From NCBI GenBank assembly GCA_029978085.1, contig JAPOJV010000001.1:2110-66109 (forward strand): a stretch of DNA of 64,000 nt, in the 5' to 3' direction. Made by a program: the position numbers and the translations under genes. Positions 9,493 to 52,650 of this stretch are shown here, piece after piece (the stretch's first letter is position 1; every line of letters begins with the position of its first letter). This DNA is from a bacterium (GTDB lineage: Bacteria > Planctomycetota > Planctomycetia > Pirellulales > UBA1268). The notes beneath the pieces are model-generated. The model ran no database searches and was not told where the DNA came from. It worked only from the letters and a program-made list of their open reading frames with translations.

Positions 9493-9493
9493 C

Positions 9494-10842: not shown

Positions 10843-11282
10843 ACCAACTGGCACTCCTGCAAAACGCGCTCGTCGTCGGCGCGATCCTGTTCTCGCTCGG
10901 CCTCGTGGGCATCCTCACGCGGCGAAACCTGATCGTGATGTTCCTCTCCGCGGAGCTGATGCTGCAGGGCATCTCCGTGAGCCTCGTGGCCTGGAGCCGC
11001 TACCACGGCGACTTCGGCGGGCAGGTACTCGTGATCTTCGTGCTCACCGTGGCGGCCTGCGAGGCGGCGGTGGCCCTCGTGTTCGTGCTCCAGGCCTTTG
11101 CCCGTACGGGGCGGCTCGACTCGGCAGCCTGGCAGTCACTCCGCGAATCCAATCTGCCGCGACGGGTCGATCACGAGCTACCGGCCATCGACACCGTGCC
11201 CCCCTCGTTCCCGCGGCTCACGCCCGCCGGTGTGCTGCCTGCCGCCGACGAAAACGACCTGCTCCAGCGCGAGCACGTCTGA
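10839..11282 (+). CDS. nuoK: NADH-quinone oxidoreductase subunit K with a 47-aa hydrophilic C-terminal tail
   Basis: ORF 10557..11282 trimmed to ATG 10839 (ATGA overlap with nuoJ). ND4L core MNQLALLQNALVVGAILFSLGLVGILTRRNLIVMFLSAELMLQG. Confidence 0.88.
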   Translation: MNQLALLQNALVVGAILFSLGLVGILTRRNLIVMFLSAELMLQGISVSLVAWSRYHGDFGGQVLVIFVLTVAACEAAVALVFVLQAFARTGRLDSAAWQSLRESNLPRRVDHELPAIDTVPPSFPRLTPAGVLPAADENDLLQREHV

Positions 11283-11304
11283 CCGCACCGCTCCACCGAT
11301 CACC

Positions 11305-37976: not shown

Positions 37977-38855
37977 GGAAAGATTTGAGTGCCTATTCGA
38001 TCCCATGCAGACGCGTGCAGGGGTCGGGAAGTGTGCGCCTCCACCAGCCACCGGACATTCCGGTAGATGTGCCTGGAAAGGAGGTCGCACGGATGACAGC
38101 TTGGCTGCGGCGGCGCGTCGCCGGCGCAGTCCTGTCTGCCAGCGCAGACAGCCGTGCTGACCCGACGGGGGGGAGCGTCAGGGCGGCGGCTGACAGTCTG
38201 GAGCCGCGGGGGGGAGTCCTGTGGCGACGCAATGGTTCGCCAGCAGGTTCGAGCACAACGTGGGGGAGAGATTCCCGTCGAGCAATCGACCGGCCAAAGT
38301 GGCCATGGGGAGAAAGGATTCCTACACCGCAGGACCGGATTGCATCGCCGCACGCCACACGGACGCGCGTTCGCTTGCGATGCCCGTTTCTCGCGGCACC
38401 ATGAATCGAACCACGCCACTGGGTCCACTGATCACGCGTGTGCGTGCTCGGCTTCGCAGCGGCTGACGAAAAGTTTACGCTTCCGTGCAGCGAAAGCGAA
38501 ACATTTTTCGCCGCATTTGAGCAGGTGCATTCTGCGTGCCAGTGCGTTGCCGATTCCGCTCCGTGATCGGAAAGGCGTGCAGGAGCGGGTGCAGCGCGGG
38601 ACAGCCGGGCCAAAATCATTGAAGAATTGACAACGAGCCGAACCGGACGGTCACGGTGGGGCGGAAGGCGGGAATTTTTTTCAAGTCAGTCAGCGCGGCG
38701 CAGAAGTCGAGCCGGCGGAGCGAGGACCGTTCAAACCAAGTTAATCTAGGTATCTTCGGAAAGCCACGCACCTTTCTGTGCCCCGCGGCCTCACCCCCCT
38801 TCCAATCGGGCTTTGCGGTCGATTGGCCCCATTTTTGCGAGAAAAAACGGAATTC

Positions 38856-41168
38856 ATGGCAGCCACAGCCCTGTCCGCAGACTCAGCCCCCGGGGACGCG
38901 CCCCGCAGGACCGCCGGTCTGCCGTGGGGCGACCTGGTTCGGCTCCAGCCGGGCGAACAGGTTGTGGCCGTCTGCCGGTTCGACCTCGATGGCCAGATGC
39001 GATTCACCGACGGCTGGATCGCCCTCACCGATCGTCGGCTCGTTGCCGATGCCCCCGCCTCCGCCGATGCGGCCACCCTCGAGACCCCCGGTCCACGATC
39101 GTGGCCCCTTGGCGATGGCACGCGGATCGATGTCTATCTCCGGTCCGCAGTGGGCCGGATCGAGCTCTCCGAACGGGGCCGAGTGATCGCCCGCTGGCTG
39201 TTCACGCCCGCCAAGGCGAAGGGCGTGCACGCGCTGGAGGACGCCTTCGATGCTCGGTCCGAGGCTCGTGGCGGCCCGACCGCCCCATCGGCAGCACCGC
39301 CGGCTGCTACCGACGAGGCCGGCGAATCCACCGCGATCGCGCCGGCCCGCGGCCGTGGCGACGATGACGGCCCCCTGCCGAGCAGCGGCCTCGCATCATG
39401 GCGGGCACTCGCGCGGCTGCTCGGCTTCGCCAAGCCGCACTGGCGCATGGCCGTGCTCGGTATCGCGCTTTCTCTGGCCAGCACGTCGGCCGCGCTCGTG
39501 CCTCCGTATCTCACGATGCCGCTGGTCGACAAGGTGCTGATCCCGAGGCAGGCGGGGGAGCAGGTGCCATTCTCGGCAGTGTGGTGGTATCTCGGCGGCC
39601 TCACGGCTGCGGCCCTCATCGCGTGGCTCCTCGCCTGGGCCCAGACGTGGACGCTCGCCTGGGTGAGCGAGCGGATCGCCGCCGGACTCCGCGTGCGGAC
39701 CTACGCCCATATCCAGCGGCTGTCACTCGATTTCTTCCAGGGCCGCCGCACCGGCGACCTCATCTCCCGCGTGGGCAGCGATACCGACCGCATCAATATC
39801 TTCCTGTCGGTGAACCTGATCGAGTTCGCCTCGAACGTGATGCTGATGGTGCTCACGGTGGGCGTGCTGATCTGGCTCAATCCCCGGCTGGCCCTGCTCA
39901 CGCTCGTGCCCTTCCCGTTCGTCGTCTGGCTCGTCTACGCCGTCCGCGAGCGGCTGCGCCGCGGTTTCGGCCGGGCGAGCGTGGCCTGGGGCGACATGAC
40001 GAGTGTGTTGGCCGACACGATCCCCGGGATCCGCGTGGTCAAGGCGTTCGCCCAGGAGTCACGCGAGATCGACCGTTTCGTCGCCGCCAACGACCGCGTG
40101 CTGGATGCCAACGACCGCGTCAACGTGGTCTGGTCGTTCTGCGGCCCGCTCGTGACGCTTTTCAACGAGCTTGGCCTCCTGTGTGTGTGGGCCGCGGGCG
40201 CCTGGCTCGTGTTCGGCGGCGGCGTGACGGTGGGTGGCCTCACGGCGTTCCTCGCCTACATCGCCCGGTTCTACGGCCGCGTCGAGTCGATGATCCGCAT
40301 GGTGCCCGCGACCCAGCGGGCTGCGGCCGGTGCGCAGCGGATCTTCGAGATCCTCGACTGCACGCCGTCCGTCGCGGAGGCCGCGCACCCCGTGAAGCCC
40401 GGCCGTGGCGACGGCCGGATCCAGGGACGGATCGAAATTTCCGGCGTGCACTTTCGCTACGGCGCACGGGAGGTGCTCCACGGCATCGACCTCGTGATCG
40501 AGCCGGGCGAGATGATCGGCCTCGTCGGCACGAGCGGTTCCGGCAAGTCGACGCTCGCCAACCTGGTCTGCCGCTTTTATGACCCGTCGAGCGGCTCGAT
40601 CAAGGTGGACGGCGTCGACCTCCGCGACCTGTCGATCGCCGACTACCGCCACAACCTCGGCTGCGTGCTCCAGGAGCCCTTCCTCTTCTTCGGCACGATC
40701 GCGGAGAACATCGCCTACGGCCGGCCCGACGCGCCGCGAGACAAGATCGTGGAGGCCGCCCGGGCCGCCGGCGCCCACGACTTCATCCTCGCGCAGCCGC
40801 TGGCCTATGACTCCCGCGTCGGCGAGCGCGGCGGATCGCTCTCCGGGGGTGAGCGTCAGCGGCTCTCGATCGCCCGCGCCCTGCTCGTCGACCCGCGGAT
40901 CCTGATTCTCGACGAGGCCACGTCGAGCGTCGACGCCGAGACCGAGGCGATCATCCAGGCCGCGATCGACCGACTGGTGACGGGCCGCACCACGATCGCG
41001 ATCGCCCATCGACTGTCGACGCTCCGCCGGGCCAATCGGCTCGTGGTGCTCGATGCCGGCCGCATCATCGAGATGGGTACGCACGACGAACTGCTCGCCC
41101 TCGACGGAGCCTATGCCCGGCTTTATCGGGCGCAGATGGAAGAGAGCGAGGCGGCGGCCGGCGTCTGA
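38856..41168 (+). CDS. ABC exporter (fused permease/ATPase) with a soluble N-terminal extension of about 190 aa
   Basis: ORF 38778..41168 trimmed to ATG 38856. Six-TM exporter domain, Walker A GTSGSGKST, signature LSGGERQRLSIARAL, Walker B ILILDEATS. Confidence 0.88.
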   Translation: MAATALSADSAPGDAPRRTAGLPWGDLVRLQPGEQVVAVCRFDLDGQMRFTDGWIALTDRRLVADAPASADAATLETPGPRSWPLGDGTRIDVYLRSAVGRIELSERGRVIARWLFTPAKAKGVHALEDAFDARSEARGGPTAPSAAPPAATDEAGESTAIAPARGRGDDDGPLPSSGLASWRALARLLGFAKPHWRMAVLGIALSLASTSAALVPPYLTMPLVDKVLIPRQAGEQVPFSAVWWYLGGLTAAALIAWLLAWAQTWTLAWVSERIAAGLRVRTYAHIQRLSLDFFQGRRTGDLISRVGSDTDRINIFLSVNLIEFASNVMLMVLTVGVLIWLNPRLALLTLVPFPFVVWLVYAVRERLRRGFGRASVAWGDMTSVLADTIPGIRVVKAFAQESREIDRFVAANDRVLDANDRVNVVWSFCGPLVTLFNELGLLCVWAAGAWLVFGGGVTVGGLTAFLAYIARFYGRVESMIRMVPATQRAAAGAQRIFEILDCTPSVAEAAHPVKPGRGDGRIQGRIEISGVHFRYGAREVLHGIDLVIEPGEMIGLVGTSGSGKSTLANLVCRFYDPSSGSIKVDGVDLRDLSIADYRHNLGCVLQEPFLFFGTIAENIAYGRPDAPRDKIVEAARAAGAHDFILAQPLAYDSRVGERGGSLSGGERQRLSIARALLVDPRILILDEATSSVDAETEAIIQAAIDRLVTGRTTIAIAHRLSTLRRANRLVVLDAGRIIEMGTHDELLALDGAYARLYRAQMEESEAAAGV

Positions 41169-41200
41169 CGTCACACCACCGTTCCCCTGCCCGACACACC

Positions 41201-41722
41201 ATGCACCACGCGACTTCCGACATGACGTCCAATGACATGACGCCCCAGACCGGCTCCTCCCCCGCAGGCTGGCGGCTGGAGCGGCATGCCCACGGCCGGC
41301 TCGACTTCGTCGATGCCCAGGGCCGGCGGCATGCCAACGTGGACGTGCTCCGCGCCTTTCCCGTAAGCGACCCCGCCGGTCCGGCTGCGATCGTTGCCGC
41401 CGAAGGCGGTGAGTTGGCGTGGGTCGAATCACTCTCCGGCATCGCCGCCCCGCTTCGCACCATCCTCGAAACGGAGCTTGCCCAGCGGGAGTTTCTCCCG
41501 CGGATCGAACAGATCGAGGCGGTGTCCGATGGAGAGCCTGCCGAGTGGACCGTGGTCACCGACCGCGGCCCGCATCGGTTCAAGGTGGCCCACGCCGACG
41601 ACTTCGTCGCGCAGCCCGACGGCAGCGCATTCGTGACCGACAGCTACGGTATGCGATACGCGATCCCGAGCATCGCCGCCCTCGACCCCCGCAGCCGCCG
41701 CCTGCTCGAGCGCAAGGGGTAG
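41201..41722 (+). CDS. DUF1854-like protein (family reported as cyanophycin-metabolism-associated)
   Basis: The pattern GRLDFVDAQGRRH...VLRAFPVSDP...ELAWVESL...ELAQREFLPRIEQIEAV...WTVVTDRGPHRF...YGMRYAIPSIAALDPRSRRLLER matches my recollection of DUF1854. The gene immediately follows the ABC exporter. Confidence 0.65.
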   Translation: MHHATSDMTSNDMTPQTGSSPAGWRLERHAHGRLDFVDAQGRRHANVDVLRAFPVSDPAGPAAIVAAEGGELAWVESLSGIAAPLRTILETELAQREFLPRIEQIEAVSDGEPAEWTVVTDRGPHRFKVAHADDFVAQPDGSAFVTDSYGMRYAIPSIAALDPRSRRLLERKG

Positions 41723-41763
41723 GCCCGTCACGGAGTGACCGGAACAAGTCACTGCGTGACTTG
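41719..41763. repeat. REP-like cluster 4
   Basis: The GTAG at 41719-41722 contains the TAG stop of the upstream gene. CCCGTCACGGAGTGACCGG (one mismatch) and the perfect CAAGTCACTGCGTGACTTG (41745-41763). Confidence 0.8.
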
Positions 41764-41923
41764 CCCACGGGCCCTTCCCCGACCCCGTAAGATGGACGGG
41801 TTACGCCGTTCATGAGGGACGGGGGCCTGTTTTTCGCGAAAAAACGTGGTTTTTTTCTCAACCTTTCGGTTGAAGCCTGCGTACATCGGATTAGTCTCGA
41901 AGGGTCTTTTCAGGAGCCAACTC

Positions 41924-43630
41924 ATGACCCCGTTCGGCCGCCGTTCGAACGCCTCTCGCCGCCTGCTGTCGCTGGCGTGCACCGCCCTCGTCGTCGCACC
42001 GCAGGCTCCCGCCATGCGGACCGCGCGGGCCCAGTGCTGTGGTGACGCCGTCGTCGCCCCCGCTCCGGTCGCCACGCAGACCTACCGCCTCGACTACCAG
42101 ACCGTCTACGACGAGCAGCAGGTCACCGCCTACCGCATCTCGCAGGAGACCGTCTACGACTCGAAAACCTACACCGTGCAGAAGCCGGTCTGGGAGACGC
42201 AGACGCAGGAGCGTCGTTACACCGTGCAGCGTCCCGTGTGGGAAACGCAGACCCGCGAGGAGCGGACCACGGTGATGAAGCCCGTGTACGAGACGCAGAT
42301 CCAGGATCGCAGCTACGACGTCACCCGTGACGTAATCGAGACGGCGACCCGCGAGGAGCAGTACACGGTGATGAAGCCTGTGTACGAGACCGTGATGCAG
42401 CAGCAGGTCTCAACCGTCCGCAAGCCGATCTACGAGACGAGTGAGCGGGAGCAGGCCTACACCGTCACCGAGCCGGTCACCCAGATGCGGACCGCCTACT
42501 CCGTCGGCAGCCAGGCCGTTGACACCGTCACGCCCGTCGTCACGCCGGGCACGACGTCGCTCGGCTGGGTGCCCGCCAGCTACGCCATCGACCCCTCCAC
42601 GGGTCTCGCCGTCATGCAGCGGGGCGGCTGGGTGTGGCAGATGAATCCCGGCGCGGTCGTCAACCAGGTGAACCGCGTCTACCAGCCCACCTACACGCCG
42701 GTGCAGGTGCCTGAGACGACCTACGTCAACCGCGTGGTGACGCAGAAGGTGCCGGTGCAGACGGTCCGCTACGTCGATGAGCAGGTCGTCCAGCAGGTGC
42801 CCGTGCAGACCATGAAGATGGTTGCCGAGACGGCGACCCGTCAGGTGCCCGTGCAGACCGTCCGCAAGGTGGTCGAGCGGGTCGAGAACAAGGTGCCGGT
42901 CACCGTCTGCCGGATGGTGCCCGAGGAACAGGTCCGCCAGGTGCAGATGCAGGTGATGAAGTACGTCACCGAGGAAAAGGTCGAGCCGGTGCAGGTGCAG
43001 GTGATGAAGTACGTCACCGAGGAGCGGACGATGCAGGTGCCGCGGGTCGTCGAGAAGCGGACGCCCTACACCTACACAGTGCGGATGCCGCGGACGGTGG
43101 TCACGAAGGTGCCGCTCGACCCGTGTGGCAATCCGATTCCGGCTGCGGCGATGACCGCCGCTCCGGCTGCAGCCTCGCGTCCGACGTCGGCCCCTGCTCC
43201 GGCGATCTCTACCACCGACTCTGGCCCCCTGAAGACGTTCAGCGACCGGCCGGCCGACGCGCCGAAGAAAGTCGAAGAGGGCTGGGGCGCGTCGAATCTC
43301 AACCATGTTGACCCTGCCACGAGCTCCGCGGGCACGGTGCGGGCCGAGAAGCCGGTCGTCGATTCGGCTCAGGCTCCGAGCAGCGAGCAGTCGCTGAAGA
43401 AGATCGAGACGATTCCGGCGCCGGCCGCGAAGGAGCCGGGAGCGGCCCCGCAGACGCCGAGTCAGTCGGCGCCGAAGGCAGCCCCGCAGCCGGCGGTCGA
43501 GCAGTCGCCGACGGTCGCCCCGCCGGGTCCGGCTGTGTATCCGCCGCCGCCGGCCTCCGATCCCCGCGACGTGCCGGCTGCCGAGACCTCGGGCCGCAGC
43601 CTCACCGGCCGCCACGGCCACACGACGTGA
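41924..43630 (+). CDS. Secreted YTV-repeat protein with a Pro/Ala-rich C-terminus
   Basis: ORF 41846..43630 trimmed to ATG 41924 (signal peptide MTPFGRRSNASRRLLSLACTALVVAPQAPA). Tandem repeats of about 18 aa, YTV(Q/M)KPV(W/Y)ETQ..E(R/E)...; a 27-bp perfect direct repeat at 42949 and 42997. Confidence 0.75.
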   Translation: MTPFGRRSNASRRLLSLACTALVVAPQAPAMRTARAQCCGDAVVAPAPVATQTYRLDYQTVYDEQQVTAYRISQETVYDSKTYTVQKPVWETQTQERRYTVQRPVWETQTREERTTVMKPVYETQIQDRSYDVTRDVIETATREEQYTVMKPVYETVMQQQVSTVRKPIYETSEREQAYTVTEPVTQMRTAYSVGSQAVDTVTPVVTPGTTSLGWVPASYAIDPSTGLAVMQRGGWVWQMNPGAVVNQVNRVYQPTYTPVQVPETTYVNRVVTQKVPVQTVRYVDEQVVQQVPVQTMKMVAETATRQVPVQTVRKVVERVENKVPVTVCRMVPEEQVRQVQMQVMKYVTEEKVEPVQVQVMKYVTEERTMQVPRVVEKRTPYTYTVRMPRTVVTKVPLDPCGNPIPAAAMTAAPAAASRPTSAPAPAISTTDSGPLKTFSDRPADAPKKVEEGWGASNLNHVDPATSSAGTVRAEKPVVDSAQAPSSEQSLKKIETIPAPAAKEPGAAPQTPSQSAPKAAPQPAVEQSPTVAPPGPAVYPPPPASDPRDVPAAETSGRSLTGRHGHTT

Positions 43631-43757: not shown

Positions 43758-44636
43758 ATGCGCCTGCTCAGCTCCCTGCTCGCAATCGCCATCCTGTCCG
43801 CCGCCACCAACGCGACAGCCGCCGAGAAACTCAAGGCGCTGATCGTGGACGGCCAAAACAACCACGGCAACTGGCCCCAGACCACCCAGATGATGAAGCG
43901 GTATCTCGAAGACACCGGCCGCTTCACCGTGGACGTCGTCACGCATGCACCGAAGGGTGAAGACCCGTCGTTCAAGCCCGCCTTCGCCGACTACGCCGTG
44001 GTCGTGAGCAACTTCGGTCACGGGGCCGCGGCCTGGCCCGCCGAGACGCGGACCGCCTTCGAGGATTACGTGCGCAGTGGGGGCGGGTTCGTCGCCGTCC
44101 ATGCGGCCGACAACTCGTTCCCCGATTGGGCGGCCTACAACGAGATGATCGGACTCGGCGGATGGGGCGGACGCAACGAGAAGAGCGGGCCGTACGTCTA
44201 CTACTCCGACGACGGGAAGCTCGTCCGCGACACGTCGCCGGGGGCTGGCGGCAGCCACGGTCCGCAGGCACCGTTCGCGATCATCGTCCGTGACGCGGCC
44301 CATCCCATCACGAAGGGCATGCCGGCCACGTGGCTGCACGCCAAGGACGAACTCTACGACAGCCTCCGCGGTCCGGCGACCAACATGGAGGTGCTCGCGA
44401 CGGCCTACTCGCCCAAGACCAAACGGCACGAGCCGATGATGCTTTCGATCGCGCACGGCAAGGGACGCGTCTTCCACACACCGATGGGCCACGCCAACGA
44501 GTCGCAGGAGTGCGTGGGCTTCATCACGACATTCGTGCGGGGCGCCGAGTGGGCGGCCACGGGCGCGGTCGAGCAGCCGGTGCCCGCCGACTTCCCGACG
44601 GCCGACGCCGAACGGAGCCGGCCGTTCGCGAAGTGA
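43758..44636 (+). CDS. ThuA-domain protein (secreted)
   Basis: Signal peptide followed by KALIVDGQNNHGNWPQTTQMMKRYLEDTGRFTV, and HTPMGH near the C-terminus, typical of the ThuA family. Confidence 0.75.
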   Translation: MRLLSSLLAIAILSAATNATAAEKLKALIVDGQNNHGNWPQTTQMMKRYLEDTGRFTVDVVTHAPKGEDPSFKPAFADYAVVVSNFGHGAAAWPAETRTAFEDYVRSGGGFVAVHAADNSFPDWAAYNEMIGLGGWGGRNEKSGPYVYYSDDGKLVRDTSPGAGGSHGPQAPFAIIVRDAAHPITKGMPATWLHAKDELYDSLRGPATNMEVLATAYSPKTKRHEPMMLSIAHGKGRVFHTPMGHANESQECVGFITTFVRGAEWAATGAVEQPVPADFPTADAERSRPFAK

Positions 44637-45496
44637 GCCATCCGCTGCACGACGGCAGCCTGGTGATCGGCGTCGATTTCACGTCGGCGCCATCCCGACG
44701 CAAGCCGCTTACCGTCGCCGTCGGCCGCTGGCGAGCCGGTAGGCCGCGGCCGGCCTACGACCTCGACGAGATCAGAGCCTTCACGAGCCTCGATGAGTTC
44801 GCTGGGCTGCTCGCCGCGCCGGGCCGCTGGGTGGGGGGCTTCGACCTCCCCTTCAGCCAGCCACGCAGCCTGATCGAGCACGAGGGCTGGCCCACCGACT
44901 GGCCGGAGTTCGTGCGGTTCTATTGCGACCAGCCCCGCGACGCGCTCCGCGACGTGTTTCGCCGCTGGTGTGACGGCCGGCCCGCGGGCGACAAGTTCGC
45001 CTGGCGGGCAACCGACACGCCCGCCGGCTCGAGCCCGGCGATGCGCTGGGCCAATCCTCCCGTTGCCTGGATGATGCACGCCGGCATCGGCCGGATGCTC
45101 GCCGCCGGCCTCGCGTTCCCGGCCCACCGCCACGCGCCGCGCGGCAGCGGCAGGATCGCCCTCGAAGCCTATCCGGGATTCACCGCCCGCAGGGTCTGCC
45201 GGACGTCCTACAAAAGCGATACGGCGGCCAAGCAGACGCCCGACCGCCGCGCCAACCGTCGCGCGATCCTCGCCGCACTCGAACGCGGCGCGGCCAGCCT
45301 CGACATCGCACTCACAATCTCGCCAACGTGGCGGCGCCGGCTCATCGCCGACGGCAGCGGTGACCTGCTGGACGCCGTCATCTGCGCCCTCCAAGCCGCC
45401 CACGCCGCCGCCCTGCCACGCTACGGCCTCCCCCGCCACCTCGATCCACTCGAAGGCTGGATTGCCAGCGTGCCCACTTACATTTCGATCTCGTAG
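44633..45496 (+). CDS. DUF429-family (RNase H-like fold) protein
   Basis: GTG 44633 overlaps the ThuA stop (GTGA). VIGVDFTSAP N-terminus, EAYPGF, and a C-terminal DLLDAVICALQA pattern. Confidence 0.6.
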   Translation: MSHPLHDGSLVIGVDFTSAPSRRKPLTVAVGRWRAGRPRPAYDLDEIRAFTSLDEFAGLLAAPGRWVGGFDLPFSQPRSLIEHEGWPTDWPEFVRFYCDQPRDALRDVFRRWCDGRPAGDKFAWRATDTPAGSSPAMRWANPPVAWMMHAGIGRMLAAGLAFPAHRHAPRGSGRIALEAYPGFTARRVCRTSYKSDTAAKQTPDRRANRRAILAALERGAASLDIALTISPTWRRRLIADGSGDLLDAVICALQAAHAAALPRYGLPRHLDPLEGWIASVPTYISIS

Positions 45497-46866
45497 CCCT
45501 TGCGATACGGGCGGGCGAGCATCGCGTTGGCCTGGTCGTCGCCGATGACCTGCTCGGTAACGGCGTCCCACTTCAGCGACCTGCCGAGGCGGCCGCTGAT
45601 GCCGGCCAGGTGACAGACGTTGAGCATCTTCATATGGGAATGCACATCGGAGATGGGCATTTCGCCGCTGCGGACGCACTGCAGGAAGTTGGCCCAGTGG
45701 GCCTTCCGCTCATTCCCCTCCATGGGCATATGGCGGTAGACCTTCGCGACGGCGTCGGCCGGCAGCGGGTCATCCTTCAGGGCGTCCACAGGTGCTCCCG
45801 TGAGCTTACCGCGGTTGACGAAGATCGTGCCCTTGTCGCCTTCGATGAGCACGCCGTTGTCGGTGTCGTGTCGAATGACCAACTGCGTGTCGCCCGGGAA
45901 ATCGACCGTGAAGTGAAACTCCGTCGCGGTGTTGTAGCGGTCGCGCTCCACCGGCATGCCGTCCTTGAACTCGACGGGGTGCGTGGCCGTGCCGCCGATC
46001 GACGTCGGGCCCGCCGTCTGGCCATTGAGGGCAAGGGCCCACATCGCGATGTCGACGTGGTGCGCCCCCCAGTCGGTGAGCTTGCCGCCCGAATACTCGT
46101 ACCACCAGCGGAACTCGTAGTGACCGTTCGTGTTGGCCGGTGGCCGCTTCTCCTTGCCGTCCTTGTCCACGACGGCCGGGCCCTGAAAGAACCGATACTC
46201 CACCGCCGGTGCCGGTCCGAGCCAGCGATCCCAGTTGAGTTCCTTCGCCGGCTCGGCGACCGGGATCGCCGGGGAAGACGGGGCGTTGCCGATCGCGGTC
46301 TGCACCCGCTTGATCCGGCCGAGCCGCCCCTCGGCCACGAGGGCCATCGCGGTCACGAACAGCGGAAACGTGCTCCGCTGCTGGGTTCCCACCTGCACGA
46401 TCCGGCCCGTCTCCCGCTGCACCTTGCGAATGAGTTTGCCTTCGTCGATCGTGAGTGTGAGCGGCTTTTCGCAGTAGACGTCCTTGCCTGCCCGTAGCGC
46501 CTCGACCAGCGGTTTTGTGTGCCAGTGGTCGGGCGTGGCGATGTGGAGGACATCGACGTCCTTTCGCTCCAGAATGCGGCGGTAGTCGTCGTAGACCTGT
46601 GCCTTGCCGCCGGCGAGCTTCTCGTTGGCGGAGGCCGCCCGACCGGAATCAGCGTCGGCGATCGCGACGACGTCGATCCACTGGGCCGCCGACCGGAGAT
46701 TGCCGACGCCCATCCCGCCCGCGCCGATCAGGCCGATCGTGAACCGGTCGTTTTTCGACTTCGTCTCGTCGGCGAGCGTCCGCGGCGTCGAATGGAAATA
46801 GGGCACGCCGGCGGCGGCCGCGAGCGTGGCACACGACGAAAGAAAACCACGACGGGTGTTGTTCAT
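45478..46866 (-). CDS. Gfo/Idh/MocA-family oxidoreductase with a twin-arginine signal
   Basis: ORF 45478..47343 trimmed to ATG 46866 (MNNTRRGFLSSCATLAAAAG). Rossmann IGLIGAGGMGVGN and VYCEKPL. Confidence 0.88.
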   Translation of the reverse strand: MNNTRRGFLSSCATLAAAAGVPYFHSTPRTLADETKSKNDRFTIGLIGAGGMGVGNLRSAAQWIDVVAIADADSGRAASANEKLAGGKAQVYDDYRRILERKDVDVLHIATPDHWHTKPLVEALRAGKDVYCEKPLTLTIDEGKLIRKVQRETGRIVQVGTQQRSTFPLFVTAMALVAEGRLGRIKRVQTAIGNAPSSPAIPVAEPAKELNWDRWLGPAPAVEYRFFQGPAVVDKDGKEKRPPANTNGHYEFRWWYEYSGGKLTDWGAHHVDIAMWALALNGQTAGPTSIGGTATHPVEFKDGMPVERDRYNTATEFHFTVDFPGDTQLVIRHDTDNGVLIEGDKGTIFVNRGKLTGAPVDALKDDPLPADAVAKVYRHMPMEGNERKAHWANFLQCVRSGEMPISDVHSHMKMLNVCHLAGISGRLGRSLKWDAVTEQVIGDDQANAMLARPYRKGYEIEM

Positions 46867-47005
46867 GACGCAGGCTCCAGAGAACGGATGCGGAGAGACC
46901 GATTGCTCGCGTGAGAATACCCGCGTGGGGCCGCGAACCCAACGGTTCGTTGGACGTGCCCTTGGCCCTGGGATAGATTCTGCGATCGCTGAGAGGAATT
47001 GCCCA

Positions 47006-47971
47006 ATGCCCGAGACGGTCACGGACGACCAGATTCTGCCTGCGCACGGCGTCCGCCGGCTGTACACGGCAGCCATGATGGCCGAGGTGCTCGATGTCTC
47101 GCCCGCAGCCGTGCGGCACTGGGTGCGGGAGCGGCTCTTGGAGCCGATGCGGCGGTCGGGCTCGCTCGAATGGTTCGACTTCAGCCAGCTCGTGGTGGGC
47201 CGGAATCTCGCCCGCCTGCTCCGCGGTGGCCTGTCACTGCGGGAGATCGACGACAAGCTGGCCGATCTGGTGGCCGGCGGAGGCCCTGCGGCGGCCCAGG
47301 CCACGGACCGGATCGTGGCCGATGGCCGGCGGCTCAGCCTCAAAAGTGGTGACCGGCTGCTGAGCGCCGGGGGGCAGCTGCAATTGCCGTTCTACACGTC
47401 GTCACTCGTCGCGGCCGCCGAGCCGATCGACACCGTGCCCGCGGTGCGGCTCATCGACATGGCCGCCGCCCGTGCCGCCGCGACGTCGCCTCAATGCACT
47501 GCCGAGCGGGATGCCGCCGCGGAGGCCACCGAGATCCTCGACCTCGCCGATGATCTCGAGGCAGCCGGTGAATTCGCCGAGGCGGCCGAGGCGTTGCGAG
47601 CGGTGCTCCAGGCCCAGGGGCCGTCGGCGGCGGTCATGTTCACGCTCGCCGAGTTGCTCTACCGGGCTGGCGATCTTACGGCGTCCCGGGAGCGGTACTA
47701 CGCCACGATCGAGATCGACCCCGAGCACCTGCGGGCCCGGGCGAGCCTGGGGTGTGTCTTGGCGGAGCTCGGCGAGCACGAGCTGGCCCTCGCGGCGCTC
47801 GAGGGCGTGCTGCGGCAGGAGCCCGACTACGCCGATGCCCACTGGCACATCGCCGGCGTGCTCCACGAAATGGGCCGTGCGCGGGACGCGCGGCACCATC
47901 TCGCCACGTTCCTCACGCTCGCGCCCGAGAGTCCGTGGGCCACCCTCGCCCGACAGCGGCTCGAAGCGTAG
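47006..47971 (+). CDS. MerR-type HTH plus TPR-domain protein
   Basis: ORF 46826..47971 trimmed to ATG 47006. LYTAAMMAEVLDVSPAAVRHWVRERLL is the HTH; the C-terminal part has TPR repeats (AELLYRAGDLTASRERYYATIEIDPEH...). Confidence 0.7.
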   Translation: MPETVTDDQILPAHGVRRLYTAAMMAEVLDVSPAAVRHWVRERLLEPMRRSGSLEWFDFSQLVVGRNLARLLRGGLSLREIDDKLADLVAGGGPAAAQATDRIVADGRRLSLKSGDRLLSAGGQLQLPFYTSSLVAAAEPIDTVPAVRLIDMAAARAAATSPQCTAERDAAAEATEILDLADDLEAAGEFAEAAEALRAVLQAQGPSAAVMFTLAELLYRAGDLTASRERYYATIEIDPEHLRARASLGCVLAELGEHELALAALEGVLRQEPDYADAHWHIAGVLHEMGRARDARHHLATFLTLAPESPWATLARQRLEA

Positions 47972-48043: not shown

Positions 48044-48649
48044 TCAGTACGCGCCCCACGGTCCGCGGACGGCATTCACGCCGAACTGCACGGTGTCGCT
48101 CGGCTGGTTGGGCGTCGGCAGGAATCGTCCGCCGCCTCCGGCCACGGCGCCGGGTCCCGGATAGGGACGCCGAAACTGATGGTAGATCGGCGCCACCCGC
48201 GAGCTCGGCACGCCCCAGCCGTATTGCGTTTGGAACTCGGCCGTGGGGGGCACGACGAGCGCGATCGGCCGGCCTTCGGCGGGATCGTACCAGGCGCTGT
48301 GCGAGCTCTTGCCCTGGCTTCGCAGGAAGTAGCGCTTCTCGATCACGTCATGATGAAGCCAGTGGCCGTCGCAGAGGCCGTGGGCACAGCAGTGTCCGCA
48401 GCCGTGACCGCCACAGTGGCCGCAGCCGTGGTGATGGCCGCAGTGCCGCCCGCAGCCGTGATGCCCCACATGCCCGTGGTGCGGCCCGCACGCAGGACCG
48501 GCGCATCCGGGCACCGGGCCGTATCCGCCGGAGCCCGCCGGATAGGCCGGCCCTCCGGCGTGGCATAGGTGGCTCGTCGCCCAGCCAAGCGTCACCACGC
48601 ATGCGACGGCAGCCAGCTGCCGGCGCAGGTCACGAGTCAACTGCCGCAT
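48044..48649 (-). CDS. Secreted His/Cys/Gly-rich protein (putative metal binding)
   Basis: Signal-like N-terminus followed by HHGHVGHHGCGRHCGHHHGCGHCGGHGCGHCCAHGLCDGH. The C-terminal half is Pro/Tyr-rich. Confidence 0.6.
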   Translation of the reverse strand: MRQLTRDLRRQLAAVACVVTLGWATSHLCHAGGPAYPAGSGGYGPVPGCAGPACGPHHGHVGHHGCGRHCGHHHGCGHCGGHGCGHCCAHGLCDGHWLHHDVIEKRYFLRSQGKSSHSAWYDPAEGRPIALVVPPTAEFQTQYGWGVPSSRVAPIYHQFRRPYPGPGAVAGGGGRFLPTPNQPSDTVQFGVNAVRGPWGAY

Positions 48650-48665
48650 GTCGCGTCGCTCCTCC

Positions 48666-49010
48666 TCAATACCAGTAGGCGTGCACGTCGGTCCGCATGC
48701 CGGTCACGCCCGCAGGCCGGATGTACCGCCGCCGATGCTTGTAGAGAAACTCGTGCGGCATGAACGGGGGATACGTGTACCAGGTGTGCCCCACCCGCGG
48801 CGGCACCGGCCGTGGCGCCACGTAGAGCTGCGCCCCCATGCCGGGATAGCCACCGGCGGGCACCGGCGGCGTGTAGAAGTTGTAGAAGACGTCGGGCGTC
48901 GGGCCCTCGACGCCGCCATCGATCGGCAGCCCGCGACACTCCGCAGCCGCCATCCCGGCTGCGATGACCGTCACCACGAGCCCGCGCCGCATCCATGCGG
49001 ATCGAAGCAT
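48666..49010 (-). CDS. Small secreted Pro/Tyr-rich protein (start uncertain)
   Basis: ORF 48666..49034; hydrophobic N-terminus RRGLVVTVIAAGMAAAEC. Lies 16 nt upstream of the His/Cys-rich gene on the same strand. Confidence 0.45.
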   Translation of the reverse strand: MLRSAWMRRGLVVTVIAAGMAAAECRGLPIDGGVEGPTPDVFYNFYTPPVPAGGYPGMGAQLYVAPRPVPPRVGHTWYTYPPFMPHEFLYKHRRRYIRPAGVTGMRTDVHAYWY

Positions 49011-49301
49011 CTCCCACCTCCGTGTGGAACCCAAGCTCGGATGAGCCGGACAGGTGGAAGGCGTCCGTGCCTTTCACCGGCTCTTTTCTTTCGGCTTCGC
49101 GAGCCCCGGGCAGACAGTGCCCGCGGGCCGGCCGGGCGACCTCGACGCGACAGGCACACCTTCACGTTTCCGCGGGCCGCCCGCAGCGGAACACTGCCGC
49201 GGGCCCGGGCGGCAGACTCCCGCTGACCCGCAAAGCCCTCCCCTCTTGCCAAGCCCGCGGCAGCCGATCACAGTCTGGTGACCCGATCCTTCGTATCCGC
49301 C

Positions 49302-51461
49302 ATGGCCAAAACCAAGCAACGCCCGAGCAAAGCCGCGAAGACCGCCCCTGGTCAGCCCACGGAGCCGGAGGCAAACGGTCAGCCCGCGGCTGCGGCCAAG
49401 CAGCCCGCCAAGCGACGAGCCACCGCCCAGACGCTGGCCGCCGGGCAGCGCGATATTTCGGTGAGCGAGTTCTTCGCCAAGAACCGCCACCTGCTCGGCT
49501 TCGACTCGCCCCGCAAAGCCCTGCTCACGAGCGTGAAGGAGGCCGTGGACAACTCCCTCGACGCCTGCGAAGAGGCGGGCATCCTGCCGGAGATCTGGGT
49601 GCGGATCGAGCAGGTGGGTGAGAGCGGCTCCCGCTACCGCATGAGCGTGCAGGACAACGGCCCCGGCATCGTGGCCAAGCAGATCCCGCTCATCTTCGGC
49701 AAGCTCCTCTACGGCTCGAAGTTTCATCGGCTGCGGATGAGCCGCGGTCAGCAGGGCATCGGCATCTCGGCGGCCGGCATGTACGGCGTGCTCACCACCG
49801 GCAAGCCGGTGAAGATCATCTCCAAGATCGACGCCAAGCATGCCGCCCACTATTCCGAACTGCGGATCGACACGAAGACCAACCAGCCGGAGATCCTCAA
49901 CGGCAAGGGCGAGGGCGTCGACATCCCGTCCGGCAAGGGCGGCGTCGAGCTGATGAAGAAGCACTCGATCGAGTGGGTCGCCGAAAACGACAAGGGCGAC
50001 GCCATCGACCACGGCACCCGCGTGACGATCGAGATGGAGGCGAAGTTTCAGCGGGGCCGCGGCAGCGTCGAGGAATACCTCGAGCAGACGGCGATCTCGA
50101 ATCCCCACGCCCGCATCCATTTTCAGGGGCCCGATGGCCCCGAGCGAATCCTCGAACGCTCGACCGAGGACCTGCCGCCGGAGCCGAAGGAGATCAAGCC
50201 GCATCCCTACGGCGTCGAGCTCGGCCGGCTGGTGACCATGCTCCAGGAGCATCCCAAGCTCACCCTCGCCCAGTTCCTCACGCAGTCGTTCTCGCGGGTC
50301 TCTCACGGCACGGCCAAGAAGATCTGCGACACGGCGAAGCTCTCGACACGGGTGACCACCGGCAAGCTCGGCCGCGGCGAGGCCGATGCGCTCTTCAAGG
50401 CGATCCAAGAGACCAAAATCCCGCCGCCGGCCACCGATTGCGTGGTGCCGATCGGCGAACAGCGGCTGCTCGCTGGCCTGCGGCAGGTGGTGCCGGGCGA
50501 GTTCTTCACGGCGGCAACTCGGCCGCCGGCCGTCTACCGCGGCAATCCGTTCGTGATCGAGGCGGCGCTCGCCTATGGCGGCGGCGTGGCCGCCCAGAAA
50601 ATCAGCCGCGAGGCCCTCGGTGAACTGGCCGGCGAGAGCGACGCCCGCAGCCTGCGGCAGTTCCTCACCACGACGTTCAGCGGCCTCGGCGCCGAGGCGG
50701 CCGACAAGATTCTCGCCGAGGCCCAGCTGGCACCGCGGCAGTCGCCATCCAAGCTCAAGAAGCCGCAGCTCGACGCCTTGCACGGTGCGATGCAGCATGT
50801 GAGTGCCGACGATGGCCAGAGCATGAACGTGCTTCGCTACGCCAACCGCGTGCCGCTCCAGTTCCAGCCGGCGGCCTGTGCCGTCACGCAGACGATGACC
50901 TCGACCAACTGGCGGGCCTACGGGCTCTCGCAGTCGCGGGGCGGCCTGCCGAGCGGCCCGGTCACCGCGATGGTGCACGTGGCGAGCGTCTGGGTGCCGT
51001 TCACGAGCGAGTCGAAGGAGGCGATCGCCTCTTACCCGGAGATCCAGAAGGAGATCCGGCTCGCGCTCCAGGCGGTGGGCCGCAAGCTCGGCATGTACAT
51101 GCGGCGGCGGCTGCGGGTGGCCCAGGAGGGACAGCGGCGGAGCATCTTCCTCCGCTACCTCGGCGAGGTGGCCTCGGCGGTCTCGCAGATCAACGGCTCC
51201 GACCGGGCAGGCCTCTACGATCAGCTCCTCGCCGTGGCCAAGAAGAAAACGGCCGAGGCCGACGTGAAGCTCGACGACCGCGGCCGCCCGATCCAGGAAG
51301 AGGAAGACCTCGAGCTCGGCGACAACTGCATCATCGTCCCGCAGACGGTGCCGGGCTCAGGGACGACTGCCGGACCGCCGGAGGGTGAGGCAGACGAGAA
51401 GCCCACCCGCACACGCAAGCCAGCGGCGACGAAGCCGGCCAAGTCCCGCCGTCGGAAATAG
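49302..51461 (+). CDS. top6B: DNA topoisomerase VI subunit B
   Basis: ORF 49278..51461, ATG 49302. Bergerat-fold motifs EAVDNSLDACEE, VQDNGPGIV and SRGQQGIGISAAGMYG. H2TH-like KEIKPHPYGVELGRL and a transducer region (ANRVPLQFQ...VHVASVWVPFTSESKEAI). Basic C-terminal tail. Confidence 0.85.
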   Translation: MAKTKQRPSKAAKTAPGQPTEPEANGQPAAAAKQPAKRRATAQTLAAGQRDISVSEFFAKNRHLLGFDSPRKALLTSVKEAVDNSLDACEEAGILPEIWVRIEQVGESGSRYRMSVQDNGPGIVAKQIPLIFGKLLYGSKFHRLRMSRGQQGIGISAAGMYGVLTTGKPVKIISKIDAKHAAHYSELRIDTKTNQPEILNGKGEGVDIPSGKGGVELMKKHSIEWVAENDKGDAIDHGTRVTIEMEAKFQRGRGSVEEYLEQTAISNPHARIHFQGPDGPERILERSTEDLPPEPKEIKPHPYGVELGRLVTMLQEHPKLTLAQFLTQSFSRVSHGTAKKICDTAKLSTRVTTGKLGRGEADALFKAIQETKIPPPATDCVVPIGEQRLLAGLRQVVPGEFFTAATRPPAVYRGNPFVIEAALAYGGGVAAQKISREALGELAGESDARSLRQFLTTTFSGLGAEAADKILAEAQLAPRQSPSKLKKPQLDALHGAMQHVSADDGQSMNVLRYANRVPLQFQPAACAVTQTMTSTNWRAYGLSQSRGGLPSGPVTAMVHVASVWVPFTSESKEAIASYPEIQKEIRLALQAVGRKLGMYMRRRLRVAQEGQRRSIFLRYLGEVASAVSQINGSDRAGLYDQLLAVAKKKTAEADVKLDDRGRPIQEEEDLELGDNCIIVPQTVPGSGTTAGPPEGEADEKPTRTRKPAATKPAKSRRRK

Positions 51462-51741: not shown

Positions 51742-52650
51742 TCAGTTGGCGTCGTCGCCAACGGAGATTTTCGCCTCGGGCAGACGCTCCTGAAGCCGGC
51801 GGACCGACTCGGCATCGACGGCCGTGCGCTGCAACGAGAGCTCGCGCAGGGCGGCGAGGTCAGCCAGTTGGCTGATGCCCGCGGCTGATACGGCCGTCGA
51901 GCCGATCGAGAGCCAGCGGAGCCGACGCAGGCCGGCGAGCGTGGCCAGGCCCGCATCGGTGAGCCGCGTGTCGGCGAGATTCAGCCATTCGAGATCGCCG
52001 AGACCCGCGAGATGAGCGATGCCGTCATCACCGACCGGCACCCGCCACAGGTTGAGCCGACGCAGCGACCGGAGCTGACCAATCGGCTCGAGCGCCGCAT
52101 CATCGAGCTGCACCGACTCGCTGAGATCCAGATCCTGTAGGCCGTCGAGTGCGACCAAATGCGCAAGGCCGGCGCCGGTGACGGCGGCGCGGGCCAGCCG
52201 CAGCCGCCGCAGCTTCGGAAACTTTGCCACGATGGCGAGGTCGTCGTCCCGCACCAGCGTCTGGGCCAGCGTCAGTTCCTCGAGGTTCACGAGCGCCGCG
52301 ATCGCCGCCAGGCCGTCGCCGCCGACCCAGAGATGATCGAGCATGAGCACCCGCAGCTTCACAAGCGGCGCGAGCGAGCCGAGGCCGGCATCGTCCACGG
52401 TCGTGGCGCCCGACTTGCCGGAGAGCCGCAGCGCCACGAGGTCGGTGAGACCGGCGAGCGTGGCCAGGTCGGCATTCGTAACGGTGCAGGCCCGCAGATC
52501 GAGATCGACCACGGCTCCGGCTTCGTTCCGCTTGGCAACGCCCCCCGCCGCCACGAACCGGGCCACGGTGTCGGCCGGCTCCGCTGCCTGCGCGGCATGC
52601 GCAGGAAGGACGAGAATGACTGCCGCGAGCACTGCACCCAGCCGTTTCAT
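51742..52650 (-). CDS. Secreted leucine-rich-repeat protein
   Basis: ORF 51742..53154 trimmed to ATG 52650 (MKRLGAVLAAVILVLPAHAAQA). Repeats of about 24 aa, L..L.L....v.D.gLa.La.L. One-nt TGATG overlap with the upstream gene. Confidence 0.8.
   Translation of the reverse strand: MKRLGAVLAAVILVLPAHAAQAAEPADTVARFVAAGGVAKRNEAGAVVDLDLRACTVTNADLATLAGLTDLVALRLSGKSGATTVDDAGLGSLAPLVKLRVLMLDHLWVGGDGLAAIAALVNLEELTLAQTLVRDDDLAIVAKFPKLRRLRLARAAVTGAGLAHLVALDGLQDLDLSESVQLDDAALEPIGQLRSLRRLNLWRVPVGDDGIAHLAGLGDLEWLNLADTRLTDAGLATLAGLRRLRWLSIGSTAVSAAGISQLADLAALRELSLQRTAVDAESVRRLQERLPEAKISVGDDAN

What the first reader, a model, noticed from the sequence alone, without database searches (positions are those of the whole stretch)
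49302..51461. Bacterial topoisomerase VI subunit B gene with no subunit A (Spo11-like) gene beside it
The 719-aa product has a complete Top6B architecture: a GHKL/Bergerat ATPase with the N-box EAVDNSLDA, G1 DNGPGI and G2 GQQGIGIS, an H2TH-like segment, and a transducer. It also carries a Lys/Arg-rich C-terminal tail. Topo VI is mainly archaeal and plant; it is sporadic in bacteria, and the A and B genes are usually adjacent. Here the neighbours are a His/Cys-rich secreted-protein operon (divergent) and an LRR gene (convergent). The A subunit must therefore be encoded elsewhere, or the B subunit works with another partner.
Basis: partly seen in the sequence, partly recalled or inferred. Interest (0 to 1): 0.55.

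Follow-up and report, generated by a model that had tools for sequence, protein, structure and literature searches.

The report
Topoisomerase VI B gene, partner unlinked
This is an ordinary, intact gene for the ATPase (B) subunit of bacterial topoisomerase VI from a Pirellulales-type planctomycete; in this sub-lineage the gene for the DNA-cleaving A subunit has moved away from it to another place in the genome.

Summary
The ORF at 49302-51461 (+) is real and encodes a complete Top6B. It scores 661 bits against NCBIfam NF003218 (cut-off 274) and matches M. mazei Top6B (PDB 2Q2E) at E=1.5e-135. No Top6A is encoded anywhere in the 64-kb window.

The natural partner could still be identified. In many Planctomycetia genomes a B gene of exactly this type sits 3-400 bp upstream of a Top6A of one specific type. 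That B type carries the same 61-74-aa insertion and the same C-terminal 'ADVKLDDRGRPI' motif. The A type has the motifs TSxRGLYY, HVEK[GD]TVW and LDNDPWGYYIY.

B genes at least 77% identical to the window's form one clade in which A is never adjacent. In the A tree there are matching clades of intact 'solo' A genes. They come from MAGs with similar GC content, the same study series and the same Pirellulales labels.

The ancestral layout was p201<-p122<- ->top6B->top6A. Here top6B stayed in place and top6A left.

Topo VI with both subunits in Pirellulales, including the extra helical bundle in B, was published in 2024. So this is a split operon of a known enzyme. The A gene of this particular genome could not be retrieved.

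The parts
49302..51461 (+). top6B gene, 719 aa: DNA topoisomerase VI subunit B (GHKL ATPase, H2TH, transducer with an inserted second H2TH, C-terminal extension)
   Evidence: ORF. NCBIfam NF003218 661 bits and TIGR01052 492 bits, both above their cut-offs. Pfam Topo-VIb_trans and HATPase_c. PDB 2q2e_B E=1.5e-135. At least 8000 database relatives scored; the best 120 are 85-94% identical, and those that carry a source name are called topo VI subunit B from Planctomycetes (one is called 'ATP-binding protein').
49302..49421 (+). N-terminal Lys/Ala/Pro-rich tail (aa 1-40); variable among homologues
   Evidence: Sequence. These columns are variable in the 25-sequence alignment. Comparable basic tails occur on the partner-type Top6A N-termini.
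49539..49769 (+). ATP-binding motifs of the Bergerat fold: N-box (aa 80-88), G1 (118-123), G2 (149-156)
   Evidence: Positions. Invariant in 25 homologues. Aligned with the M. mazei and S. shibatae Top6B motifs.
50199..50417 (+). canonical H2TH domain (aa ~300-372)
   Evidence: Aligned to the M. mazei Top6B H2TH region. A Pfam NFACT_N hit covers aa 291-370. It is one of only two confidently folded segments in the AF2 model.
50595..50816 (+). inserted second H2TH-like module (aa 432-505) inside the transducer; specific to the Planctomycetia type of Top6B
   Evidence: Absent from M. mazei and S. shibatae: their alignments break at aa 431/506. 39% identical over 54 aa to the first H2TH, E=2e-8. 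Matches the Fpg H2TH of 3twk at E=0.003. Weak Pfam H2TH and S13 hits. Present in all Planctomycetia class-2 B genes. Corresponds to the 'alpha-helical bundle' described for Pirellula staleyi.
50817..51200 (+). C-terminal half of the transducer (aa 506-633), with the WKxY-like WRAY motif (537-540), the switch lysine in SESKEAIA (569-576) and the long helix that contacts Top6A
   Evidence: Pfam Topo-VIb_trans best stretch at aa 504-609. Alignment to 2q2e_B residues 369-496. Motif positions.
51201..51458 (+). C-terminal extension (aa 634-719): a conserved 'ADVKLDDRGRPI...NCIIVP' segment followed by a variable Lys/Arg-rich tail
   Evidence: The motif is shared with the operon-type B genes of L092 and L081 but not with class-1 B.
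48666..49034 (-). p122: 122-aa protein with no family match, transcribed divergently from top6B; a conserved neighbour
   Evidence: ORF. No Pfam or NCBIfam hit. Homologues lie upstream of top6B in 17 of the genome loci, both solo-B and operon type, and in the P0087 and P0001 contigs.
48044..48649 (-). p201: 201-aa His/Cys-rich protein with no family match, downstream of p122; a conserved neighbour
46826..47971 (+). MerR-HTH plus TPR protein (the true start may be internal); conserved upstream neighbour within the solo-B clade
   Evidence: Pfam MerR_1 and TPR. Homologues at 54-64% identity in L118, L152, L202 and L207. TPR genes at the same position in the P0087 and P0001 contigs.
51742..52647 (-). 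LRR protein gene, convergent with top6B; it occupies the place where top6A lies in operon-type genomes; not a conserved neighbour
   Evidence: Pfam LRR_8, LRR_4 and LRR_14. Different downstream genes in relatives. The only LRR hits among the genome loci are in unrelated positions.

Best explanation
The gene encodes the B (ATPase/clamp) subunit of a canonical bacterial type IIB topoisomerase, Topo VI.

Inferred mechanism, from the archaeal enzyme: two B subunits bind ATP through the Bergerat fold and dimerise to capture a T-segment. The transducer, with its switch lysine and long helix, passes this signal to a dimer of Top6A. Top6A cuts the G-segment with its 5Y-CAP tyrosine and Toprim Mg2+ site.

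The partner here is a Top6A of the 'P0315 type'. In most Planctomycetia this A gene lies immediately downstream of this type of top6B. In the window's sub-clade of Pirellulales it has been relocated, so B and A are expressed from separate loci. The top6B gene stayed at the ancestral position next to the divergent p122/p201 pair.

Pirellulales have gyrase but no Topo IV (literature). The enzyme is therefore most likely the cell's decatenase and relaxase of positive supercoils.

Shown here: the identity and intactness of B, the partner type, the clade-specific unlinking, and the existence of intact solo A genes in MAGs of similar GC content, from the same study series and with the same taxon labels. 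Inferred: that this particular genome carries such an A gene, and the enzymology.
For: Identity of B. Strong purifying selection: 86-90% identity to the window protein in a 25-sequence sample, including the insertion and the transducer helix, and 85-94% among the best 120 relatives.

Partner type:
- L092 carries a B that is 67% identical to the window's over aa 153-686, with the insertion and the C-terminal motif. It ends 3 bp before Top6A P0315.
- The same arrangement is seen in L093.
- In the genome scan, 72 of 113 Top6A loci have B in the same 8-kb block. These include the complete genome of Lacipirellula limnantheis, NZ_CP036339.1.

Unlinking is clade-specific:
- All seven B-only genome loci plus the window form one clade nested among operon-type Pirellulales B genes.
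- Their identity to the window is 77-93%, against 73% or less for every operon-type B.
- No A lies within 3.3-4.1 kb downstream in L102, L111 and L202.
- None lies within +-10 kb in the P0087 and P0001 contigs.
- None lies in the window, 49 kb upstream or 12.5 kb downstream.

Solo A genes:
- Eleven A loci have at least 2 kb of upstream sequence and no B.
- They fall into two all-solo clades.
- Clade S1 (63-70% GC, 89% mutual identity) has intact catalytic motifs and the full Pfam Top6A architecture.
- S1 comes from the same MAG series and carries the same labels as the B-only loci: Pirellulales EUL_323 versus EUL_329/EUL_332, samp_4432 versus samp_4449, and 'Kuenenia' and 'Chitinophaga' mislabels on both sides.

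Ancestral position: p122/p201 homologues lie upstream of top6B in both solo and operon loci.

Literature: Topo VI-A and -B both occur in Pirellulaceae, Lacipirellulaceae and Thermoguttaceae, and those bacteria lack Topo IV (PMC11302465).
Against: No genome was seen in which both an unlinked B of this clade and a solo A were retrieved together. The scan stopped at 120 rows and no assembly appears twice.

The window's own genome could not be searched. Its proteins are not on record in the assemblies index.

The NJ trees are quick distance trees without support values. In the A tree the two solo clades are not sisters, whereas the solo B genes form a single clade.

The AF2 model of B was too poor (pLDDT 42) to examine the A-binding surface.
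Confidence: 0.85

Rival explanations
1. Orphan B subunit. The A gene was lost in this clade, and the GHKL-H2TH-transducer protein now works alone or with a different nuclease or partner, for example as a DNA-clamping ATPase.
For: No A lies next to B in any member of the clade. Same-genome co-occurrence with a solo A was not demonstrated. The extra H2TH module and the basic tails could support DNA binding without A.
Against: The transducer, switch lysine and long A-contacting helix are invariant across the clade. Branch lengths are short rather than accelerated. Intact solo A genes of exactly the partner type exist in MAGs of similar GC content, from the same study series and with the same labels. 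A solo A would itself need a B. The insertion and the tails also occur in operon-type B genes. Published Pirellulales genomes contain both subunits.
Confidence: 0.08
2. A mobile-element or defence-associated type IIB relative (Topo VIII-like or paraMORC-like GHKL) rather than a housekeeping Topo VI subunit.
For: Bacterial type IIB enzymes of the Topo VIII and Mini-A kind are carried by mobile elements (PMC7671362). One related B-A pair lies on a contig filed in IMG/VR.
Against: The protein scores as a top6B equivalog and is not fused to an A domain. GC content is uniform around the gene. The neighbourhood (cyanophycin synthetase, ABC transporter, YTV protein, MerR-TPR, p201, p122, top6B) is syntenic in relatives. 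No integrase or transposase gene was seen among the ten neighbouring products scanned. No relatives were found on bacterial plasmids; the only strong plasmid matches are annotated Topo VI genes on haloarchaeal replicons.
Confidence: 0.02
3. Another GHKL family (MutL, histidine kinase, Hsp90) mis-read as Top6B.
For: A generic HATPase_c hit.
Against: MutL and EnvZ models score 13-16 bits against cut-offs of 180-750, while Top6B models score 492-661 bits. The Topo-VIb_trans domain is present. The best PDB match is Top6B at E=1.5e-135.
Confidence: 0.01

Closest known systems
Topo VI-B of Pirellulales (Pirellula staleyi, Thermogutta terrifontis, Lacipirellula parvula), described in Allen et al. 2024, NAR Genom Bioinform (PMC11302465)
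   Same: Same order-level taxon label (Pirellulales) as the window's closest named relatives. Same architecture, including the extra alpha-helical bundle in the transducer. It works with a Topo VI-A in bacteria that have gyrase but no Topo IV. The Lacipirellula limnantheis B gene is 68% identical to the window's.
   Different: In the Lacipirellula limnantheis chromosome seen here the B and A genes are adjacent (L105). In the window's clade they are unlinked. The paper does not discuss gene order, and it does not describe the bundle as an H2TH duplicate.
Methanosarcina mazei Topo VI subunit B (PDB 2Q2E chain B)
   Same: GHKL, H2TH and transducer align over three blocks at E=1.5e-135. tblastn gives 47-48% identity over aa 42-435 to M. 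mazei-type loci. [quoted passage not shown]
   Different: There is no sequence match to the region that follows the transducer in the M. mazei chain, the part described as an Ig-like C-terminal domain (PMC9348778): the alignment ends at residue 496 of that 621-residue chain. The window protein also has a 74-aa H2TH-like insertion at M. mazei position ~368, a ~36-aa insertion in the GHKL domain (aa 200-235), and basic N- and C-terminal tails. The archaeal gene is always followed by top6A.
Class-1 planctomycete Topo VI (B of 592-626 aa plus the P0276/P0394/P0462-type A) in marine Planctomycetota MAGs
   Same: A bacterial Topo VI of Planctomycetota, with basic N-terminal tails.
   Different: Its B is only 50% identical to the window's and lacks both the insertion and the C-terminal extension. 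Its A belongs to a different lineage (ETGGMFQRL and FVDCDPYG motifs, 34% identical to P0315). It is always an adjacent B-A pair.
Topo VIII / Mini-A (type IIB relatives carried by mobile elements)
   Same: Bergerat fold, H2TH and part of the transducer are homologous (PMC7671362).
   Different: Topo VIII is usually a single B-A fusion carried on plasmids or integrated elements. The window protein is a stand-alone B in a conserved chromosomal context and scores as a Top6B equivalog.

Membership tests
DNA topoisomerase VI subunit B (Top6B) | Whole-protein match to curated Top6B models above their cut-offs | tested here: met
   NF003218 661 bits (cut-off 274) and TIGR01052 492 bits (cut-off 380.7).
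DNA topoisomerase VI subunit B (Top6B) | GHKL/Bergerat ATP-binding fold with N-, G1- and G2-boxes | tested here: met
   EAVDNSLDA at aa 80-88, DNGPGI at 118-123, GQQGIGIS at 149-156. They align to the M. mazei and S. shibatae motifs. Pfam HATPase_c.
DNA topoisomerase VI subunit B (Top6B) | H2TH domain between the GHKL fold and the transducer | tested here: met
   Aligned with the H2TH region of 2q2e_B. A second copy is inserted at aa 432-505.
DNA topoisomerase VI subunit B (Top6B) | Transducer domain with switch lysine and long C-terminal helix | tested here: met
   Pfam Topo-VIb_trans 2e-50. The SESK motif aligns to the same motif in M. mazei. Helices at aa 579-604 and 613-631 appear in the model, at low confidence.
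DNA topoisomerase VI subunit B (Top6B) | A Top6A partner (5Y-CAP plus Toprim) encoded in the same genome | not testable with these tools
   There is none in the window. Lineage-level evidence: the same B type is fused into operons with P0315-type A genes, and solo A clades occur in matching MAG series.
DNA topoisomerase VI subunit B (Top6B) | ATP-dependent strand passage as an A2B2 heterotetramer | not testable with these tools
   This needs biochemistry. It is inferred from the archaeal enzymes.
Topo VIII | Single polypeptide with B-like N-terminal and A-like C-terminal halves, carried on a plasmid or integrated element | tested here: not met
   The protein ends after the transducer and C-terminal extension, with no TP6A_N or Toprim hit. 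The chromosomal context is conserved.
Meiotic Top6B-like (TOPOVIBL / MTOPVIB) | Degenerate GHKL fold and no H2TH domain | tested here: not met
   All ATP-binding boxes are intact and two H2TH modules are present. The family definition is from PMC11302465.
MutL / sensor histidine kinase | Match to the family models above their cut-offs | tested here: not met
   MutL 15.8 bits (cut-off 180) and EnvZ 13.2 bits (cut-off 415).

The most novel reading that the evidence does not exclude
In this Pirellulales sub-clade the two Topo VI genes have become uncoupled for a functional reason, not only physically. Under this reading the B subunit, with its duplicated H2TH module and basic tails, has an A-independent or differently regulated role. 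The always-adjacent divergent p122/p201 pair would then be functionally tied to it, somewhat as plants have the accessory Topo VI subunits RHL1 and BIN4. The evidence does not exclude this, because same-genome co-occurrence of B and A, expression and interactions were not testable.
Probability: 0.08. Interest if true: 0.6.

Novelty: new member of a known kind. Interest (0 to 1): 0.22.

Why it matters
It matters little for enzymology. Topo VI in Pirellulales, with both subunits and the extra helical bundle, is already documented.

Four modest points are worth keeping:
1. The statement that top6B and top6A are 'invariably in tandem' holds for archaea but breaks down in a well-defined, environmentally abundant planctomycete clade. 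Neighbourhood-based searches for the A subunit will miss it there. PGAP's name for Top6A ('DNA topoisomerase IV subunit A') adds to that problem.
2. The 'helical bundle' of Pirellulales Top6B is an internal duplication of the DNA-binding H2TH module. This gives a testable idea about how the enzyme handles the T-segment.
3. A pair of unknown small proteins is conserved next to top6B across Planctomycetia.
4. Planctomycetota carry two different Topo VI lineages.

Tried and rejected
- Regex and tblastn with archaeal Toprim fragments on the window gave nothing. The first regex would have missed M. mazei-type motifs anyway.
- Exact look-ups of three window proteins found none on record.
- A protein search with a GC-rich Top6A from that scan turned out to hit Thermoplasmatota archaea.
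- I first took the abundant P0276-type planctomycete Top6A to be the partner. I rejected this when its contigs showed it always follows a different, shorter B that is only 50% identical to the window's.
- P0313 and P0355 looked like GC-rich planctomycete A genes, but their N-termini do not match Top6A, so they are probably assembly chimeras on very short contigs.
- The GARP/FYMINK amino-acid ratio was a poor proxy for genomic GC: L083 has 69.5% GC, yet its A has a ratio of about 1.
- The AF2 model built from a shallow alignment had pLDDT 42 and was unusable, so no fold search was run.
- Chimeric protein queries for the search for related loci were tested on viral contigs.
- Plasmid searches found only haloarchaeal Topo VI.
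- The supplement of PMC11302465 gives no accessions or locus tags that would show gene order.
Full report
**Observation.** The window has about 68% GC throughout, with no compositional break at the locus. The ORF from ATG 49302 to the stop at 51459-51461 encodes 719 aa. The N-termini of 24 close homologues begin with the same MAKT(A)KRP, which supports that start. In addition there is a switch-lysine motif SESKEAIA at 569-576 and a WKxY-like WRAY at 537-540.

Pfam finds Topo-VIb_trans (2e-50) and HATPase_c. The NCBIfam Top6B equivalogs score 661 and 492 bits, far above their cut-offs, while MutL and EnvZ models score 13-16 bits. The best solved structure is M. mazei Top6B, 2Q2E chain B, at E=1.5e-135. 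The alignment falls into three blocks and skips two insertions, aa 200-235 and aa 432-505.

The neighbours are as described. Two small genes without family matches (122 aa, and 201 aa His/Cys-rich) are transcribed divergently. An LRR gene is convergent. No Top6A is encoded anywhere in the 64 kb.

**How common is the protein?** A search of the 5.8-billion-protein collection filled its 8000-candidate limit. The best 120 hits are 85-94% identical and 708-773 aa long. Those that carry a source name are called 'DNA topoisomerase VI subunit B' from Planctomycetes or Planctomycetaceae (one is called 'ATP-binding protein'). In a 25-sequence sample nearly every position from aa 37 to about 680 is invariant or nearly so, including the insertion and the transducer helices. 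This is a housekeeping-grade, strongly constrained gene.

Two relatives on contigs of 36 and 339 kb have the same upstream genes (TPR, ~205 aa, ~115 aa). Neither has a Top6A domain within +-10 kb.

**Finding the partner.** Archaeal-type queries only recovered archaeal operons. A profile search of the 50%-identity representatives gave several bacterial Top6A types.

- The abundant P0276 type is named as planctomycete Top6A. PGAP calls it 'DNA topoisomerase IV subunit A'. On its contigs it always follows a shorter B (592-626 aa) that is only 50% identical to the window's. That B lacks the insertion and the C-terminal extension. This is a different, 'class 1' planctomycete Topo VI and not the partner sought.
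- The decisive locus is L092. Its B gene is 67% identical to the window's over aa 153-686. It has the same inserted module and the same 'DADVKLDDRGRPI...' C-terminal motif. It ends 3 bp before Top6A P0315.
- L093 shows the same arrangement. More distant versions appear in L081 and L091.
- The P0315 type is recognisable by TSxRGLYY (catalytic tyrosine region), HVEK[GD]TVWxRFNEDKFW and GQPPRGVRR...LDNDPWGYYIYSV (Toprim).

**One genome scan for both genes.** Only one scan of the species-representative genome collection was allowed. I therefore built a single IUPAC pattern that matches either of two peptides. One is a 28-aa peptide of the window-type B, present in 120 of 120 close homologues. The other is the 28-aa Toprim motif of the P0315-type A.

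It returned 113 A loci and 7 B loci, each an 8-kb block.

- The A type is widespread: Pirellulales, Thermoguttaceae, Lacipirellulaceae, Phycisphaerae, Nitrospira, Anaeromyxobacter, Methylomirabilota and others.
- In 72 of the 113 A loci a B gene lies in the same block. This includes the complete chromosome of Lacipirellula limnantheis.
- In the Planctomycetia operons the B is 63-73% identical to the window's and carries the insertion. In the other phyla it is 41-55% identical and mostly lacks it.

**The split is clade-specific.** The seven B-only loci are L102 (Pirellulales bacterium EUL_329, 93% identical to the window's B, 71% GC), L114, L118, L152 (EUL_332), L202, L207, and L111 (a marine Pirellulales with 49% GC). 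Together with the window they form a single clade nested inside the operon-type Pirellulales B genes. Every B at least 77% identical to the window's is unlinked. Every B at 73% or below is linked. Where the block allows a check, 3.3-4.1 kb downstream of B contains no A.

Conversely, 11 A loci have at least 2 kb of upstream sequence and no B. In an NJ tree the solo A genes are not scattered. They form two all-solo clades.

- Clade S1 comprises L095, L096, L129, L136, L150, L177 and L196, at 63-70% GC. Its members are 89% identical to each other, the same level as the window's B clade.
- S1 genes have intact catalytic motifs and K/R/P-rich N-termini reminiscent of the B N-terminus. L177 has all three Pfam Top6A domains above their cut-offs.
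- S1 members come from the same MAG series and carry the same labels, or mislabels, as the B-only loci: EUL_323 versus EUL_329/EUL_332, samp_4432 versus samp_4449, 'Kuenenia' on both sides, and 'Chitinophaga(ceae)' on both sides.
- In L096 and L177 the solo A lies downstream of a DegT/DnrJ aminotransferase gene, near prfB.

**Which gene moved?** Homologues of p122 and p201 lie divergently upstream of top6B in all seven solo-B loci. They also do so in at least ten operon-type Planctomycetia loci, including Lacipirellula limnantheis. The ancestral arrangement was therefore p201<-p122<- ->top6B->top6A. In the window's clade top6B kept its place and top6A left. In the window an unrelated, non-conserved LRR gene now lies convergently where top6A would be.

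**Mechanism.** All residues needed for ATP binding, the switch lysine and the DNA-binding motifs are conserved. The protein should therefore act as in archaeal Topo VI. It forms an ATP-operated clamp that captures a T-segment and, through the transducer, drives G-segment cleavage and religation by a Top6A dimer. That step is inferred from the solved archaeal enzymes.

A 2024 survey reports both Topo VI subunits in Pirellulaceae, Lacipirellulaceae and Thermoguttaceae, which have gyrase but lack Topo IV. It also notes a 'unique alpha-helical bundle' in the transducer of Pirellula staleyi Topo VI-B (PMC11302465). This makes a decatenase role plausible. It also shows that the enzyme in this order is already known.

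The bundle corresponds to aa 432-505 here. It is 39% identical over 54 aa to the protein's own H2TH (E=2e-8). It also matches the H2TH of Fpg (E=0.003). It is therefore an internal H2TH duplication.

**Limits.**
- The window's own genome could not be interrogated.
- The trees are quick NJ trees without support values.
- The structural model was unusable.

The orphan-B reading therefore keeps a small probability.

**Verdict.** The missing neighbour is best explained as a lineage-specific split of the top6B-top6A operon in a Pirellulales sub-clade. This is an ordinary member of a known, recently catalogued bacterial Topo VI group, with a minor twist in gene order.

Noticed in passing
window 50595-50816 (Top6B aa 432-505): The insertion in the transducer is an internal duplicate of the protein's own H2TH module: 39% identity over 54 aa, E=2e-8. 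It also matches the Fpg H2TH at E=0.003. It is present in all Planctomycetia class-2 B genes, and a comparable insertion appears in two Myxococcota/Deltaproteobacteria B genes (L170, L195). It corresponds to the published 'alpha-helical bundle' of Pirellula staleyi Topo VI-B, which was not described as an H2TH copy.
   Followed up: partly
window 48044-49034 (-); also L099, L102, L104, L105, L111, L114, L118, L125, L139, L140, L146, L152, L153, L162, L166, L192, L202, L207: Two small proteins without any family match are conserved divergently upstream of top6B across Planctomycetia, whether or not top6A follows. One is 122 aa. The other is 201 aa, with a variable His/Cys-rich stretch and a conserved C-terminal ~100 aa. 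Their function is unknown. This may be a shared promoter region or a functional link.
   Followed up: partly
L083-L090 (about 8100-11300 in each); L087: A second, distinct Topo VI lineage occurs in Planctomycetota MAGs, several of them marine. Its B is 592-626 aa, 50% identical to the window's, and has no insertion. It lies directly upstream of a Top6A with ETGGMFQRL and FVDCDPYG motifs that is 34% identical to the P0315 type. The context is conserved (pseudouridine synthase, DUF1425, LpoB, futalosine-pathway gene).
   Followed up: partly
L091 2936-6708: The top6B gene on this 70%-GC contig is interrupted by an intein (Intein_splicing plus LAGLIDADG hits). The contig has many frameshifts.
   Followed up: no
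L081 / L094 (IMGVR_UViG_3300037657_000197, 34.7 kb): A contig filed as viral in IMG/VR carries a complete top6B (695 aa, 55% identical to the window's) followed about 425 bp later by a top6A. I did not check whether the contig is really viral, a provirus flank or a misclassification.
   Followed up: no
(names from NCBI records): NCBI's pipeline names Top6A proteins 'DNA topoisomerase IV subunit A'. Keyword searches for the Topo VI A subunit will therefore miss them. This can make a B gene look orphaned.
   Followed up: no
L096, L118, L150, L177, L196, L202: MAGs labelled Candidatus Kuenenia or Chitinophaga(ceae) have 63-70% GC and carry Pirellulales-type top6A or top6B. The taxon labels of these bins look wrong.
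   Followed up: no
window 35310-43630: Upstream synteny is shared with relatives: cyanophycin synthetase-like ligase (35310-38090, -), ABC transporter (38778-41168, +) and a YTV-repeat protein (41846-43630, +). The window has an extra block between the YTV and MerR-TPR genes that is not on the relatives' contigs: ThuA, DUF429 and a Gfo/Idh/MocA oxidoreductase (43758-46905).
   Followed up: no
window 49074-50978 (-): A 634-aa stop-free antisense ORF overlaps top6B. This is an expected artefact of 68% GC and not a gene.
   Followed up: no
L082 (P0313) and P0355: Two short-contig 'Top6A' proteins have unrelated N-termini joined to a Toprim domain. One N-terminus is GAF-like and the other is membrane-protein-like. 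They are probably assembly or gene-calling chimeras, and each stands as its own cluster representative.
   Followed up: partly
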